Below are positions 10,188 through 13,166 of a stretch of 19,058 nt of DNA, piece by piece. This DNA is from Promethearchaeota archaeon. GTDB taxonomy: Archaea; Asgardarchaeota; Lokiarchaeia; Sigyniarchaeales; SOKP01. A program made the position numbers and the translations under genes. Below the pieces are notes generated by a model. It was given only the letters and a program-made list of their open reading frames with translations, searched no databases and was not told where the DNA came from. Where the stretch lies: contig JBHLNT010000074.1 of NCBI GenBank assembly GCA_048941265.1, positions 1 through 19,058 on the forward strand. Direction: 5' to 3'. Positions within the stretch are counted from its first letter, which is position 1. Each line of letters starts with the position of its first letter.

Positions 10188-11378
10188 TTGTTATTGGTGT
10201 TGAATATAAGAGTAAAATTTGCTGAAAGAATAGGTAGGCTGCCACCATATATATTTGCCGAAATAGAGCAATTAAAATTAGAAAAAAAAAAGCAAGGAAT
10301 TGATTTAATCCCGTTAGGTATTGGGGATCCTGATTTGACAACTCCAGAATTAATCCTAAATGAGCTTATTGAACAAGTTAAAGTTCCTGAAAATCAAAAT
10401 TATCCAACTAGTGCCGGAGAAGAGTTCTTTAGAGAAGCCGTGGCTAGATGGTGTAAAGTGAGATATGGTCTAAATTTAGATTTAAACAGACAAGTCACAA
10501 ACGTACTTGGAGGAAAAGAAGGAGTGGCCAATATTGCTAGGGCGTTTGTTAATCCTGGAGATATTGTTCTTTGCCCAAATCCGGGGTATCCTGTATATGA
10601 AAATGGTGCTACTAAATTATGTGATGGAAATCCTTACGTAATGCCATTAAAAAAAGAAAATAATTTTCTTCCTGATTTAGAAGCTATTAGCACAAAATTT
10701 CTGAAAAAAGCTAAATTTATGTATTTAAATTATCCAAACAATCCTACTGGGGCTATTGCATCGATGGATTATCTCAAAAAGGCAGTAGATTATGCTGAAG
10801 ACTATAACTTTTTTATAGTGTACGATAATCCCTATTCTGAATTTACTTATGGCGATTATATTGCTCCTAGCATACTGCAAATTAGTCAAGATCATCTTGA
10901 AATTTATAGTGCATCAAAAATGTTTAATATGACAGGCTTTAGGTGCGGATGGGCAATAGGAAACGCAGAAATTATTGATGGATTAAGAAAAGTGAAATCT
11001 CAAATAGATTCAGGTTGTCCTATATTTATCCAAAAAGCAGTCGTGAAGGGTTTAAACGAATATTCTTCAGAGAAGAAACCTGAGATTGTTGCAAAAACAA
11101 TGGAAGTTTATGAAAAGCGCAGAGATATATTTGTCGATGGTCTAAACAAAATGGGATGGAAAACTGAAAAACCTCAAGCAACTTTTTATATTTGGACGCA
11201 AATTCCAGAGGGAGAGAAAAATAGCATGGAATTTGTTAAAAAGTTAATAGATGTAGGAGTAGTTCTTACCCCTGGAATAGGTTTTGGTGAATATGGGGAA
11301 GGTTTTGTACGAATTGCCTTAACTCAACCAATTGAAAGGTTACAAGAAGCATTAATAAGAATAGAAAAAGTCATTTAG
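10188..11378 (+). CDS. dapL: PLP-dependent class I/II aminotransferase, probably LL-diaminopimelate aminotransferase
   Basis: LPPYIFAEI, LGIGDPD, NYPNNPTGA, YDNPYSE, PLP-lysine motif SASKMFNMTGFRCGW, TPGIGFGEYGEGFVRIAL. Substrate is inferred from family resemblance. Confidence 0.7.
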   Translation: MLLVLNIRVKFAERIGRLPPYIFAEIEQLKLEKKKQGIDLIPLGIGDPDLTTPELILNELIEQVKVPENQNYPTSAGEEFFREAVARWCKVRYGLNLDLNRQVTNVLGGKEGVANIARAFVNPGDIVLCPNPGYPVYENGATKLCDGNPYVMPLKKENNFLPDLEAISTKFLKKAKFMYLNYPNNPTGAIASMDYLKKAVDYAEDYNFFIVYDNPYSEFTYGDYIAPSILQISQDHLEIYSASKMFNMTGFRCGWAIGNAEIIDGLRKVKSQIDSGCPIFIQKAVVKGLNEYSSEKKPEIVAKTMEVYEKRRDIFVDGLNKMGWKTEKPQATFYIWTQIPEGEKNSMEFVKKLIDVGVVLTPGIGFGEYGEGFVRIALTQPIERLQEALIRIEKVI

Positions 11379-11400: not shown

Positions 11401-11586
11401 TTATTTGGATTTTTGTTTATATTTTTTCCATAGAAATCCCATTCGAATTTCCTCCTCTATTTCGATTTCTGCTGGCACATTATCAGACATATCGAATATA
11501 TTTATATAAGAAAACTCATTAAATGGTTTATCTTTTTCTTTTTCTTCTTTTTCATAAAAATCGGCTGTTAGTTCCATATAGACCAA
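11401..11586 (-). CDS. Small hypothetical protein (58-61 aa), acidic with basic C-terminus
   Basis: ORF track. Shares F-x-Y-x-N-x-F-D-x(6-7)-A-E with the neighbouring 45-aa ORF. Alternative ATG at 11577. Confidence 0.6.
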   Translation of the reverse strand: MVYMELTADFYEKEEKEKDKPFNEFSYINIFDMSDNVPAEIEIEEEIRMGFLWKKYKQKSK

Positions 11587-11819: not shown

Positions 11820-11957
11820 TTACCATGCTATTTCTTTATCAAAAAGATGACATTCAGCAGATATCGGAAATTTAGTAGTATCAAAAAAGTTACTATAATC
11901 AAATGGCTCTTCAATGATTTCCGGCTTAATAATATCCTCTTCACGAATGGTGGTCAT
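11820..11957 (-). CDS. 45-aa microprotein MTTIREEDIIKPEIIEEPFDYSNFFDTTKFPISAECHLFDKEIAW (not in ORF track)
   Basis: Hand translation; strong SD AAAGAGGTG ending 4 nt before ATG; motif shared with 11401-11586. Confidence 0.7.
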   Translation of the reverse strand: MTTIREEDIIKPEIIEEPFDYSNFFDTTKFPISAECHLFDKEIAW

Positions 11958-12184
11958 TCTACACCTCTTTTCTGTTTTAATTTTTTATCGATTTTAGACC
12001 TCTCAGCAGCAAATTACTCGAATATGACCACTTTCAAATAAATCACACGCGCCAAGCAAACAAATCCGTGAAAAATTTATAAGAAAGAGGTTAGATTCGC
12101 TTGCTTGATCTATAATACTACTACTAGTACTAATACGCCTAAAACGCGTAACAATGTATTTGATGTAGTAGTATTCGAAGTCAT
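11958..12184 (-). ncRNA. Candidate structured cis-regulatory leader RNA (three hairpins, closing stem, anti-SD)
   Basis: Perfect 11-bp stem 12114-12124/12165-12175. 15-bp stem 12053-12067/12093-12107 whose three mismatches are G.U only on the minus strand. G.U-rich stem 12022-12029/12041-12048. Begins about 25 nt downstream of a TATA box. Confidence 0.6.
12110..12184 (-). CDS. Putative leader peptide/uORF MTSNTTTSNTLLRVLGVLVLVVVL (24 aa)
   Basis: ATG at the predicted transcription start (leaderless), TAG at 12110-12112; 5 Thr, 6 Leu and 6 Val codons. Confidence 0.45.
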   Translation of the reverse strand: MTSNTTTSNTLLRVLGVLVLVVVL

Positions 12185-12208
12185 TATTATAAAATATTAT
12201 ATAATAGT

Positions 12209-12224
12209 TTTATATAAACTTTTT
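12209..12224 (-). promoter_or_regulatory. Archaeal BRE-TATA promoter (AAAAAG-TTTATATAAA)
   Basis: Purine-rich BRE-like run directly followed by a consensus TATA box, about 25 nt upstream of the structured leader/uORF. Confidence 0.6.
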
Positions 12225-12528: not shown

Positions 12529-12708
12529 TCAAAAACTTTTAATTTTCCAGTTTCTCATAAAATCTTTGAAATATTTATCTGAAATTCCAAGCGAATTGAT
12601 ATTTACATCGTTATTATTTATTTTATTCCTAAAATTTTCCTTTTGAATTTGATCTGTCTTTTTTCTGAAAGTTAATTGCCAATCAAAAAAAGAATTTGGT
12701 TTTGACAT
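12529..12708 (-). CDS. 59-aa microprotein MSKPNSFFDWQLTFRKKTDQIQKENFRNKINNNDVNINSLGISDKYFKDFMRNWKIKSF (not in ORF track), paralogue of 12909-13088
   Basis: Hand translation; gapless alignment with the upstream ORF gives 24/59 identities. Confidence 0.8.
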   Translation of the reverse strand: MSKPNSFFDWQLTFRKKTDQIQKENFRNKINNNDVNINSLGISDKYFKDFMRNWKIKSF

Positions 12709-12908: not shown

Positions 12909-13088
12909 TTAAAGATTTTTTTCTTTCCATTTTTTCATAAAATTTTTATATATATTCTCATCAATTCCAAGAGAATTAACTTCTTTTTTATTTGTTATTC
13001 TCATTATCTTAATTTCGGAATTGTGATTTAATTGAGACTTTTTACGAAAATCCAATTCCCAATCAAAATAAGAAAGTGCTTTTGACAT
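12909..13088 (-). CDS. 59-aa microprotein MSKALSYFDWELDFRKK...NSLGIDENIYKNFMKKWKEKNL, paralogue of 12529-12708
   Basis: ORF track gives 13094; the ATG at 13088 aligns with the paralogue start. Conserved blocks SxFDWxLxFRKK and NSLGI...KxFMxxWK. Confidence 0.8.
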   Translation of the reverse strand: MSKALSYFDWELDFRKKSQLNHNSEIKIMRITNKKEVNSLGIDENIYKNFMKKWKEKNL

Positions 13089-13166
13089 GATCAAAATACT
13101 ATCTTATTCAACTATAAATCCCAAGAGGGTAAAAATTTTCTAATACCTAATTTTTAGGGAATATTC

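What the first reader, a model, noticed from the sequence alone, without database searches (positions are those of the whole stretch)
11958..12224. Unannotated ~230-nt structured leader RNA with its own promoter upstream of a 45-aa gene
Seen on the minus strand after a BRE-TATA (12209-12224): hairpin A, a perfect 11-bp stem AAUACUACUAC/GUAGUAGUAUU with inner UACGC/GCGUA; hairpin B, a 15-bp stem CAAGCAAGCGAAUCU/GGAUUUGUUUGCUUG with three G.U pairs that would be A.C mismatches on the plus strand; hairpin C, GUGUGAUU/GGUCAUAU; and a closing stem ACUUCGAAUA/UAUUCGAGU that partly competes with A and C. Strand-specific G.U pairing points to selection at RNA rather than DNA level. It matches no tRNA, SRP, RNase P or riboswitch I recognise. 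Inference: an undescribed archaeal cis-regulatory RNA.
Basis: partly seen in the sequence, partly recalled or inferred. Interest (0 to 1): 0.85.

Follow-up and report, generated by a model that had tools for sequence, protein, structure and literature searches.

The report
Leader-peptide RNA switch in Asgard archaeon
The "structured leader" is real, but its first third is a tiny gene packed with valine and leucine codons, followed by an RNA that can fold in two exclusive ways: the build of an amino-acid attenuator, a device known from bacteria but, in my searches, not described in archaea.

Summary
Hairpins A and B exist as described. Both are conserved and covary in 91 distinct copies from one archaeal family whose named relatives are labelled Promethearchaeota. 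The element was found in 111 of 126 genomes of that family and in 0 of 24 genomes of six sister families. Hairpin C and the closing stem are not conserved.

Its AUG sits 34 nt after the TATA box, so the mRNA is probably leaderless. An ORF ending at the base of hairpin B occurs in 90 of 91 copies, against 7.4 expected.

The peptide tail tracks the downstream gene:
- Leu-rich before three different LeuRS lineages
- Ile/Val-rich before an FrhB-like gene
- Ala/Val-rich before a branched-chain aminotransferase
- Val/Leu-rich here, before the 45-aa and 61-aa genes

The 5' arm of B, with the loop box L, can instead pair with D1 and a mimic of B's 3' arm. This forms a long helix P that excludes B.

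A second, unrelated Leu-tract leader precedes leuA in the same genome.

Best reading: a ribosome-sensed attenuator. The regulated output step is unknown. No Rfam family matches, and transcription could not be tested.

The parts
12211..12224 (-). Promoter: TATA box TTTATATA (12218-12211) with an A-rich BRE-like stretch upstream
   Evidence: Read directly. In 84 of 89 homologous copies a TATA-like hexamer starts 29-35 nt before the sORF ATG, with a mode of 34 nt in 46 copies. No TSS data are available.
12110..12184 (-). Leaderless sORF of 24 codons, MTSNTTTSNTLLRVLGVLVLVVVL, stop TAG at 12112-12110: the proposed leader peptide with a Val/Leu tract
   Evidence: Listed. An ORF is present in 90 of 91 copies against 7.4 expected after shuffling. 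Lengths of 20-32 codons (two called at 36 and 44) are all in frame. Tail composition follows the downstream gene.
12165..12175 (-). Hairpin A, outer 5' arm AAUACUACUAC (codons 4-7)
   Evidence: I11. The cognate 5'/3' duplex averages -15.2 kcal/mol, against -9.6 for codon-shuffled and -9.7 for other-class arms, and is better than its own shuffles in 68 of 72.
12114..12124 (-). Hairpin A, outer 3' arm GUAGUAGUAUU (Val-Val-Val-Leu codons, next to the stop)
   Evidence: In 71 of 72 sORF RNAs the MFE closes the 5' end onto the 3' end; mean z against codon shuffles is -2.96.
12134..12150 (-). Hairpin A, inner stem UACGC (12150-12146) / GCGUA (12138-12134)
   Evidence: Other classes carry different complementary pairs at the same place, such as AAGGG/UCCUU and AGCCAU/AUGGCU. 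I read this by eye and in the MFEs; it was not formally counted.
12093..12107 (-). B5': 5' arm of hairpin B (CAAGCAAGCGAAUCU), starting 2 nt after the stop codon; also the 5' strand of the alternative helix P
   Evidence: The stop codon lies within -4..+2 nt of the first modelled pair of stem B in 50 of 57 copies.
12083..12091 (-). L: pyrimidine box ACCUCUUUC in the loop of B; pairs with D1
   Evidence: RNAalifold chose this helix on the raw alignment. It has 9 pairs, 90.3% paired, with double changes at 6 pairs, and it was not part of the model used for the alignment.
12053..12067 (-). B3': 3' arm of hairpin B (GGAUUUGUUUGCUUG), the best-conserved block of the element
12024..12035 (-). D1: purine box GAAAGUGGU plus CAU, a Shine-Dalgarno-like partner of L
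   Evidence: The distance from stop to the end of D1 is 86-91 nt in 16 of 19 copies.
12004..12023 (-). B3*: mimic of B3' (AUUCGAGUAAUUUGCUGCUG) that can pair with B5', extending L:D1 into the long helix P
   Evidence: The window duplex is -17.6 kcal/mol. The cognate duplex of B5'-plus-linker with the 28 nt after D1 is better than its own shuffles in 55 of 58. There are 9.8 against 4.8 pairs after shuffling B3*, and the energy is lower in 44 of 46.
11992..12004 (-). D2: second GAGAGGUC box followed by an A-run; role unknown
   Evidence: Similar boxes are seen in several classes. No conserved partner turned up in the duplex screen (segment 'mid').
11820..11967 (-). Shine-Dalgarno GAGGUG (11967-11962) and the 45-aa gene (11957-11820)
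   Evidence: Orthologues follow the element in 12 of the 91 copies. No Pfam or NCBIfam family matches.
11401..11577 (-). 58-aa acidic protein gene read from the ATG (61 aa from an upstream TTG), probably in the same operon
   Evidence: Related small genes follow the element directly in other genera. No family matches, and only 3 proteins were found, one of them the window's own.

Best explanation
The region is a ribosome-sensed attenuator of the leader-peptide type.

Proposed mechanism:
- Transcription starts at or within a few nt of the AUG at 12184 (inferred from TATA spacing).
- The 24-codon sORF is translated, and it ends in a tract of Val and Leu codons.
- The tract forms the 3' arm of hairpin A. 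The stop codon abuts the base of a two-state RNA switch.
- In one state B5' pairs with B3' to give hairpin B, and loop box L is free or pairs with D1 as a pseudoknot.
- In the other state B5' plus L pairs with D1 plus B3* to give the long helix P.

Inferred logic:
- A ribosome held up on the tract, because the cognate charged tRNA is scarce, leaves B5' free. Hairpin B then forms as soon as B3' is made.
- A ribosome that runs to the stop codon covers B5' while B3' emerges. After release, the more stable helix P forms, nucleated by L:D1.
- The B/P choice then sets expression of the genes behind it: here the 45-aa and 61-aa genes, elsewhere LeuRS, a branched-chain aminotransferase or an FrhB-like gene.

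What is shown: the ORF, the three helices, the alternative helix, and the link between tail composition and downstream gene.

What is inferred: translation, the leaderless start, which state arises under starvation, and the regulated step. That step could be premature termination at the T-tracts in B's loop, factor-dependent termination, or translation or stability of the downstream message. I do not know the direction of control.
For: 1. ORF
- An ATG-to-stop ORF of 18-45 codons ends at the base of B in 90 of 91 distinct copies, against 7.4 of 91 after shuffling the upstream 120 nt.
- Many different lengths are all in frame.
- A TATA-like hexamer starts 29-35 nt before the ATG in 84 of 89 copies.

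2. Tail composition follows the downstream gene (last 10 residues)
- LeuRS_bact: L 68% (n=4)
- LeuRS_archA: L 57% (n=33)
- LeuRS_archB: L 58% (n=4)
- FrhB-like: I 45%, V 23% (n=13)
- 45-aa class: V 48%, L 38% (n=12)
- BCAT: A 32%, V 24% (n=5, one of them misassigned)

3. Leu positions are kept through synonymous changes across both codon families (TTA, TTG, CTC, CTT, CTA).

4. Structures
- Stem B and L:D1 covary. 0 of 500 shuffles reach the observed values, and the covariation score is 0.294 against at most 0.095 for slid partners.
- Hairpin A is supported.
- The alternative B5':B3* pairing is supported.
- In an all-against-all screen of 11 segments, only A5:A3, B5:B3, L:D1 and B5:B3* stand out.
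- P is the MFE in 38 of 46 full leaders and B in 8 of 46, the window among the 8.

5. The stop codon lies within -4..+2 nt of stem B in 50 of 57 copies.

6. Independent case in the same genome
- A sequence-unrelated leaderless 37-codon sORF ends LLSLLNLFLLLLL. A 22-pair hairpin follows it 3 nt after the stop, and it precedes 2-isopropylmalate synthase.
- The Leu tract is kept in 6 further genomes.

7. Distribution: 111 of 126 genomes of the family carry the element, with up to 4 copies each.
Against: - No transcript, TSS, ribosome or peptide data exist.
- No hairpin followed by a U-run, as in bacterial attenuators, follows B or P in most classes.
- No segment is complementary to the translation start of the downstream gene. 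Predicted accessibility of that start does not differ consistently between states. The output step is therefore unexplained.
- Each gene class is largely one orthologous group. The tail-to-gene correlation therefore rests on few independent events: three LeuRS lineages, plus one group each for the other classes, plus leuA.
- The tract codons also form an arm of hairpin A, so part of their conservation could be an RNA constraint.
- The window's own downstream genes have no known link to valine.
- One class, before 61-aa-like genes in genus g11, has a different, well-conserved peptide (MSFSQY..DYWCGLH..VKPIFIRSIIKRE) without a simple tract.
- The alignment used for stem B was fitted to that stem.
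Confidence: 0.6

Rival explanations
1. The sORF encodes a functional hydrophobic micropeptide, for example a membrane-associated one, that is simply co-transcribed with various genes. The downstream helices would serve transcript stability, processing or termination and would sense nothing.
For: The ORF is strongly conserved. The N-terminus M-I/T-S-N and a hydrophobic C-terminus are kept across classes. The g11 class before 61-aa-like genes has a well-conserved peptide of ordinary composition.
Against: Tail composition switches with the downstream gene: Leu before three LeuRS lineages, Ile/Val, Val or Ala/Val elsewhere. The middle of the peptide is poorly conserved, while the RNA pairing there is kept by changes that alter the peptide. 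Length varies from 20 to 32 residues, and the hydrophobic stretch of about 10-12 residues is short for a membrane helix (general knowledge). The conserved N-terminal codons are the 5' arm of hairpin A. A mutually exclusive helix pair that starts at the stop codon has no role in this reading. The leuA leader has the same tract logic with an unrelated sequence.
Confidence: 0.15
2. The element is a purely RNA-level sensor: a riboswitch, or a protein- or tRNA-binding leader analogous to a T-box. The open frame would be a by-product of the hairpin.
For: All helices covary. B3' (CACGGAUUUGUU) is more conserved than pairing alone needs. L:D1 with stem B has the topology of an H-type pseudoknot, and the connecting loop keeps a length of 15-34 nt, median 18.
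Against: A stop-free frame from a fixed AUG in 90 of 91 copies, against 7.4 expected, is not explained by a hairpin in an AT-rich genome. Leu is kept through synonymous changes in two codon families. No Rfam family is hit, the T-box model included, at either the gathering or the E-value threshold. Tracts of many identical codons are not needed for a single specifier-type contact (general knowledge of T-boxes, recalled).
Confidence: 0.1
3. The element is a type I toxin-antitoxin-like module or a small mobile repeat: a hydrophobic toxin peptide with a structured mRNA.
For: It has a small hydrophobic peptide, an mRNA whose 5' end is closed onto its 3' end, and several copies per genome.
Against: Copies sit at conserved, syntenic positions directly upstream of the same genes in the same orientation across genera. 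There are at most 4 copies per genome. Composition follows the gene behind it. No terminal repeats or antisense gene were noticed, but I did not test for them formally.
Confidence: 0.03

Closest known systems
Bacterial leader-peptide transcription attenuators of branched-chain amino-acid operons (leu, ilvGMEDA, ilvBN) and of pheST. Recalled from textbooks; no paper on them was read here.
   Same: A short ORF ends in a run of codons for the amino acid linked to the controlled gene, including an aminoacyl-tRNA synthetase as in pheST. Mutually exclusive RNA helices begin at the stop codon, so ribosome position can choose between them. Several operons share the logic.
   Different: The ORF is leaderless, with TATA spacing and no Shine-Dalgarno sequence. 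The two alternatives share the 5' strand (B5' with B3', or with D1 plus B3*) rather than following the 1:2/2:3/3:4 scheme. No terminator hairpin with a U-run is present. The whole ORF is itself closed into a hairpin. The host is an archaeon with a different RNA polymerase and different termination. No Rfam leader model matches.
Mycobacterial leaderless polycysteine sORF attenuators (Canestrari et al., bioRxiv 10.1101/834739; abstract and outline read)
   Same: A leaderless short ORF is the first cistron, it carries an amino-acid tract matched to the function of the downstream genes, and several loci form a ribosome-directed regulon.
   Different: [quoted passage not shown] Here no segment, the tract included, is complementary to the downstream start region. 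The tract pairs with the 5' end of its own ORF, and the switch is B versus P. The domain of life also differs.
T-box riboswitches (recalled)
   Same: They control aminoacyl-tRNA synthetase and amino-acid genes according to tRNA charging, through alternative helices in a 5' leader.
   Different: Rfam gives no T-box match, and no Stem I, specifier loop or T-box sequence was recognised. Sensing here would be through a translating ribosome, not direct tRNA binding.
Ribosome shunt of the cauliflower mosaic virus 35S leader (recalled)
   Same: A short ORF terminates a few nt before the base of a long stable helix.
   Different: The shunt is eukaryotic, scanning-dependent and has no amino-acid tract logic. 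It is a resemblance of layout only, and nothing here tests it.

Membership tests
Leader-peptide (ribosome-mediated) attenuators | A short ORF in the 5' leader with a run of codons for the amino acid related to the controlled gene | tested here: met
   41 LeuRS-linked sORFs have 57-68% Leu in the last 10 residues; other classes are rich in Val, Ile/Val or Ala/Val. The leuA leader has a Leu tract. For the window copy (Val/Leu) the downstream genes have no known function.
Leader-peptide (ribosome-mediated) attenuators | Mutually exclusive RNA helices placed so that the ribosome footprint at the tract or at the stop codon decides between them | tested here: met
   B5':B3' and B5'+L:D1+B3* are both supported. 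The stop lies within -4..+2 nt of stem B in 50 of 57 copies. That the ribosome decides is inferred.
Leader-peptide (ribosome-mediated) attenuators | One alternative is an intrinsic terminator (hairpin plus U-run) or sequesters the downstream ribosome-binding site | tested here: not met
   There is no consistent U-run after B or P, and no complementarity to the downstream start region. T-tracts of 5 or more lie inside B's loop in 51 of 58 copies; their role is unknown.
Leader-peptide (ribosome-mediated) attenuators | The ORF is translated and expression responds to supply of the amino acid | not testable with these tools
No experiment was possible.
Rfam leader and riboswitch families (Leu, Thr, His and Trp leaders, T-box and others) | A match to the family covariance model | tested here: not met
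   There are 0 matches at gathering score in the whole window. At E up to 10, only three chance-level matches to unrelated families appear.
Mycobacterial leaderless sORF attenuators | The transcript starts at the start codon of the sORF | tested here: inconclusive
   A TATA-like hexamer starts 29-35 nt upstream of the ATG in 84 of 89 copies. This fits a start at or just before the AUG, by recalled archaeal promoter geometry. No TSS data exist.
Mycobacterial leaderless sORF attenuators | [quoted passage not shown] | tested here: not met
   A3:TIR and A5:TIR duplexes are no better than shuffles.
Type I toxin-antitoxin | An antisense or overlapping antitoxin RNA, and a toxic hydrophobic peptide | not tested
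   No search for an antisense promoter was made. Synteny and the gene-matched tails argue against it.

The most novel reading that the evidence does not exclude
These Asgard archaea run a ribosome-directed regulon for branched-chain amino acids and leucyl-tRNA charging. Leaderless leader peptides with Leu, Val or Ile tracts are read by the first ribosome behind RNA polymerase. They set a two-state RNA switch (hairpin B versus long helix P) upstream of LeuRS, the branched-chain aminotransferase, an FrhB-TrmB-type gene and two small acidic proteins. A second leader family serves leuA. This would be the first leader-peptide attenuation system in Archaea. Its output step would have to work without a bacterial-type terminator, for instance through T-tract or factor-dependent termination gated by transcription-translation coupling.
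Probability: 0.5. Interest if true: 0.85.

Novelty: new variant of a known kind. Interest (0 to 1): 0.8.

Why it matters
Attenuation by leader peptides is a classic of bacterial gene control and depends on coupled transcription and translation. My five literature searches found no description of it in archaea (listings and abstract starts only).

[quoted passage not shown] It would give a direct handle on three things:
- whether ribosomes follow RNA polymerase closely enough in these organisms to set RNA folding
- how archaeal polymerase or termination factors read such a switch
- how leaderless mRNAs are used for sensing

It also flags unannotated small genes, and it points to an unknown pair of small acidic proteins (45 aa and 61 aa) as probable members of a branched-chain amino-acid response.

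Tried and rejected
- **Known RNA families.** Rfam gave nothing at gathering score or at the E-value threshold, and there is no tRNA.
- **Folding energy as evidence.** Both strands score about z = -2.5 to -2.7, so energy alone does not show strand or function.
- **Hairpin C and the closing stem.** Both were rejected.
- **Hiding of the downstream start.** I looked for sequestration of the downstream Shine-Dalgarno sequence or start codon by L, D1, B3* or the tract. I first saw complementarity by eye in the window (D1 GUGGUCAU with AUGACCAC; L with AAGAGGU). The 46-leader screen shows no excess over shuffles, and constrained folds show no consistent change in accessibility.
- **Terminator after B or P.** A bacterial-type terminator was not seen in most classes.
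- **A second small ORF after D1.** It is not conserved (by eye).
- **Function of the 45-aa and 61-aa proteins.** No Pfam or NCBIfam match, and 3 proteins (one the window's own) without names in the large protein collection.
- **Scan of the own genome for other tract-type leaders.** I scanned for TATA-spaced sORFs. It yielded 11 candidates with LVIA-rich tails. Four lie before the window genes, LeuRS, BCAT and leuA. No His, Trp, Cys or Thr tracts were seen. The scan is crude and its sensitivity is unknown.
- **Formal pair counts for hairpin A and for B5':B3*.** These were not made, because MAFFT did not put the arms in register. Duplex-energy tests were used instead.
- **The 16-base pattern scan of genome contigs**. 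Only the six archaeal records confirmed with the model were used.
- **Supplementary files of papers.** None was needed or opened.
Full report
**What is at the coordinates**

On the minus strand a TATA box (TTTATATA, 12218-12211) follows an A-rich stretch. The outer stem is a perfect 11 bp, 12175-12165 with 12124-12114 (I11), and the inner stem is UACGC/GCGUA. Hairpin B is also as described: 15 bp, 12107-12093 with 12067-12053, with three G.U pairs.

Folding energy is only modestly better than shuffles and equally so on both strands. The minus strand gives z = -2.52 with 3 of 200 shuffles as good, and the plus strand gives z = -2.71 with 0 of 200. Energy therefore says little. Rfam gives no match at gathering score or at a loose E-value, and there is no tRNA.

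The AUG at 12184-12182 lies 34 nt after the start of the TATA box. It opens a 24-codon frame, MTSNTTTSNTLLRVLGVLVLVVVL, that stops at 12112-12110, two nt before hairpin B. The outer stem of hairpin A is (ACU)3 Thr codons pairing with (GUA)3 Val codons of this frame.

**Homologues**

- A BLAST-type search of 41 related genomes found 15 further places at E of 2.4e-8 or better, including a second copy in the window's own genome.
- A covariance model of the stretch from the stop codon to box D1 (R1) found three copies in the own genome. It matched in 98 of 135 genomes of the family.
- A second model built from 59 aligned matches (R2) matched in 111 of 126 genomes of the family. It matched in 0 of 24 genomes from six other families of the same class. 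This means "not found in those searched", and several of those genomes are incomplete.
- Named records that carry the element are labelled Promethearchaeota or Promethearchaeia (three records), uncultured archaeon (one), Hermodarchaeota (one) and Thorarchaeota (one). Promethearchaeia is a class of the phylum Promethearchaeota, which I recall to be the Asgard lineage.

**The small ORF**

I analysed 91 distinct copies: 58 plus 37, with identical ones merged.

- An ATG-initiated frame of 18-45 codons ends within -9..+13 nt of the model start in 90 of the 91. After shuffling the upstream 120 nt, 7.4 of 91 are expected.
- Lengths run from 20 to 32 codons in nearly all; two were called at 36 and 44 codons with a probably wrong upstream ATG. 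All are in frame.
- A TATA-like hexamer starts 29-35 nt before the ATG in 84 of 89 copies, with the mode at 34 nt in 46 copies.
- With the archaeal TATA box centred about 26-27 nt before the start site (recalled), this places the 5' end at or a few nt before the AUG. That would make it a leaderless mRNA.

**The tail follows the downstream gene**

Downstream genes were identified as follows.

| Downstream gene | Evidence |
|---|---|
| Bacterial-type LeuRS | leuS_bact 657 bits on the N-terminal half, above the 548-bit cut-off |
| Two archaeal-type LeuRS paralogues | leuS_arch is the best hit at 518-562 bits for N-terminal halves, below the full-length cut-off |
| Branched-chain aminotransferase | NF009897 423 bits against cut-off 307 |
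| FrhB/FdhB-family protein with a C-terminal TrmB domain | |
| The 45-aa and 61-aa genes of the window class | No family |

Composition of the last ten residues:

| Class | n | Composition |
|---|---|---|
| LeuRS_bact | 4 | L 68% |
| LeuRS_archA | 33 | L 57% |
| LeuRS_archB | 4 | L 58% |
| FrhB-like | 13 | I 45%, V 23%, L 17% |
| 45-aa class (the window) | 12 | V 48%, L 38% |
| BCAT | 5 (one misassigned) | A 32%, V 24%, I 14% |

Within the largest class the Leu positions are kept through synonymous changes in both Leu codon families. At codon -7, for example, the 23 Leu codons include CTC 14, CTT 4, CTA 2 and TTA 2. The own genome has only the bacterial-type LeuRS (the genome is 91% complete).

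A caution applies. Each class is largely one orthologous group, so the number of independent associations is small.

A further class, before 61-aa-like genes in genus g11, has a different and well-conserved peptide, MSFSQY..DYWCGLH..VKPIFIRSIIKRE. Its stop lies inside B's 5' arm.

**RNA structure**

*Stem B and the L:D1 pairing.* These were counted on the model-based alignment A5 (59 rows, one of them a spurious antisense match).

- Stem B has 15 pairs, 93.6% paired, with double changes at 12 pairs.
- The pairing of loop box L (ACCUCUUUC) with D1 (GAAAGUGGU) has 9 pairs, 90.3% paired, with double changes at 6 pairs. This pairing was not part of the model.
- 0 of 500 column shuffles reach the observed values. 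The covariation score is 0.294, against 0.044-0.095 when partners are slid by 1-3 columns.
- RNAalifold had already picked L:D1 on an unfitted MAFFT alignment.
- Many G.U and U.G pairs support the minus strand as the RNA strand.

*Hairpin A.* It closes the whole sORF.

- The first 33 nt after the AUG and the last 33 nt form a duplex of -15.2 kcal/mol on average. With codon-shuffled 3' parts the value is -9.6, and with 3' parts of other gene classes it is -9.7.
- The cognate duplex is better than its own shuffles in 68 of 72, and better than other-class arms in 64 of 72.
- The MFE of the sORF RNA has mean z = -2.96 against codon shuffles. It is below -2 in 57 of 72, and the 5'/3' closure is present in 71 of 72.
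- The arms change together with the peptide: (AAU)3 Asn with (UUA)n Leu before bacterial-type LeuRS, AAUAAUACUGC (NNTA) with GCAGUAUUAUU (AVLL) before archaeal-type LeuRS, and (ACU)3 Thr with (GUA)3 Val here.

*The alternative helix P.* The sequence just after D1 (B3*, 12023-12004) resembles B's 3' arm and is complementary to B's 5' arm.

- The cognate duplex of B5' plus linker with the 28 nt after D1 averages -10.9 kcal/mol. With other-class partners it is -7.8, and shuffled it is -5.8. It is better than its own shuffles in 55 of 58.
- With B3' blocked, the MFE has 9.8 B5':B3* pairs, against 4.8 after shuffling B3*. It has at least 6 pairs in 42 of 46 and a lower energy in 44 of 46.
- Together with L:D1 this makes a long helix P that excludes hairpin B.
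- In unconstrained folds of 46 complete leaders, P is the MFE in 38 and B in 8, the window among the 8.
- For the window, B alone is -16.6 kcal/mol and the P duplex is -17.6 kcal/mol.

An all-against-all duplex screen of 11 segments in 46 leaders singles out only A5:A3, B5:B3, L:D1 and B5:B3*. Nothing pairs preferentially with the downstream translation start.

*Geometry.*

- The stop codon lies within -4..+2 nt of the first pair of stem B in 50 of 57 copies.
- B's loop is 22-31 nt and contains a run of at least five T in 51 of 58 copies.
- The spacer from B to D1 is 15-34 nt, median 18.
- The distance from the stop to the end of D1 is 86-91 nt in 16 of 19 copies.

**How it most likely works**

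The layout has four parts: a short ORF with a gene-matched codon tract, the tract next to the stop, the stop abutting the shared strand of two exclusive helices, and several operons sharing the design. This is the layout of ribosome-mediated attenuation.

My model, which is inference, runs as follows.

1. The first ribosome loads on the 5' AUG before the 3' arm of hairpin A is made.
2. If it stalls on the tract, B5' stays free and hairpin B forms as soon as B3' is transcribed.
3. If it reaches the stop, it covers most of B5' while B3' emerges. After release, L:D1 nucleates the more stable helix P.
4. Once the ribosome has gone, hairpin A would close the sORF and limit further initiation.

I cannot say which state is "on", nor what reads it.

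- There is no bacterial-type terminator.
- The T-tracts inside B's loop could be archaeal termination signals whose use depends on a closely following ribosome.
- A termination factor, translation, or RNA stability could also be the target.
- For leuA and LeuRS the expected logic is induction on starvation. For an aminotransferase in an amino-acid-degrading organism the reverse is possible.

**Independent support from the same genome**

I made a crude scan for TATA-spaced sORFs with LVIA-rich tails. It returned 11 candidates.

- Three are the copies already known.
- A fourth, on contig C184, is a 37-codon sORF, MKTLRKNITFDIRISLRRLSSLSVLLSLLNLFLLLLL. A 22-pair conserved hairpin follows it 3 nt after the stop.
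- It lies upstream of 2-isopropylmalate synthase (NF002085 587 bits against cut-off 517).
- The leader is unrelated in sequence to the element studied here and is not found by its model.
- Its Leu tract is kept in five further genomes of the genus and one of another genus.

**Literature**

Five full-text searches turned up no archaeal leader-peptide attenuator and no description of this element. I saw listings and abstract starts only. The nearest analogue found is the set of leaderless polycysteine sORF attenuators of mycobacteria (10.1101/834739; abstract and outline read). In PMC2965389 I saw only two reference-list mentions of archaea. My belief that attenuation of this kind has not been shown in archaea is otherwise recalled, not tested.

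**Verdict**

The best reading is a leader-peptide attenuator with a novel two-state switch, at confidence 0.6. The main rival is a functional micropeptide gene. Transcription, translation and the regulated step remain untested.

Noticed in passing
L232 372-485 (+), which is G000:C184 about 33271-33384, and L233-L239: This is a second leader family, unrelated in sequence. A leaderless 37-codon sORF ends LLSLLNLFLLLLL. A conserved 22-pair hairpin starts 3 nt after its stop, and it lies upstream of 2-isopropylmalate synthase. It is conserved in 6 further genomes.
   Followed up: partly
L002 1-1389 (-), which is G000:C41: The only LeuRS-like gene found in the window's genome is of the bacterial type (leuS_bact above cut-off on half the protein). 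It carries the element with a Leu-run sORF. Other genera of the family have two archaeal-type LeuRS paralogues, each preceded by the element.
   Followed up: partly
window 12529-12708 (-) and 12909-13094 (-): Two paralogous ORFs of 59-61 aa (…SFFDWQLTFRKK… and …SYFDWELDFRKKS…) lie upstream of the element, between it and the family-B DNA polymerase gene. One was scanned against Pfam and gave no match.
   Followed up: no
L068 11-1459 (-) and relatives: The genes behind the Ile/Val-tract leaders encode an FrhB/FdhB-family iron-sulfur protein fused to a C-terminal TrmB-type helix-turn-helix domain. Its link to branched-chain amino acids is unknown.
   Followed up: no
window 11401-11577 (-) with 10188-11378 (+): The small acidic protein gene, and its relatives in other genera, is always convergent with a class I/II aminotransferase, with only about 22 nt between the stop codons here. 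The aminotransferase's best NCBIfam hit is LL-diaminopimelate aminotransferase, below cut-off. Read-through from the leader-controlled operon would be antisense to the aminotransferase.
   Followed up: no
L212-L215, L223, L225, L226, L229, L231 (genus g11): A variant class of the element has a well-conserved 28-32-aa sORF, MSFSQY..DYWCGLH..VKPIFIRSIIKRE. Its stop codon lies 11-13 nt inside stem B, upstream of a 52-59-aa protein (…LDYYKDWDS…LGYLRKKY).
   Followed up: partly
window 11992-12004 (-): A second GAGAGGUC box (D2) followed by an A-run recurs after helix P in several classes. It had no conserved pairing partner in the screen.
   Followed up: partly
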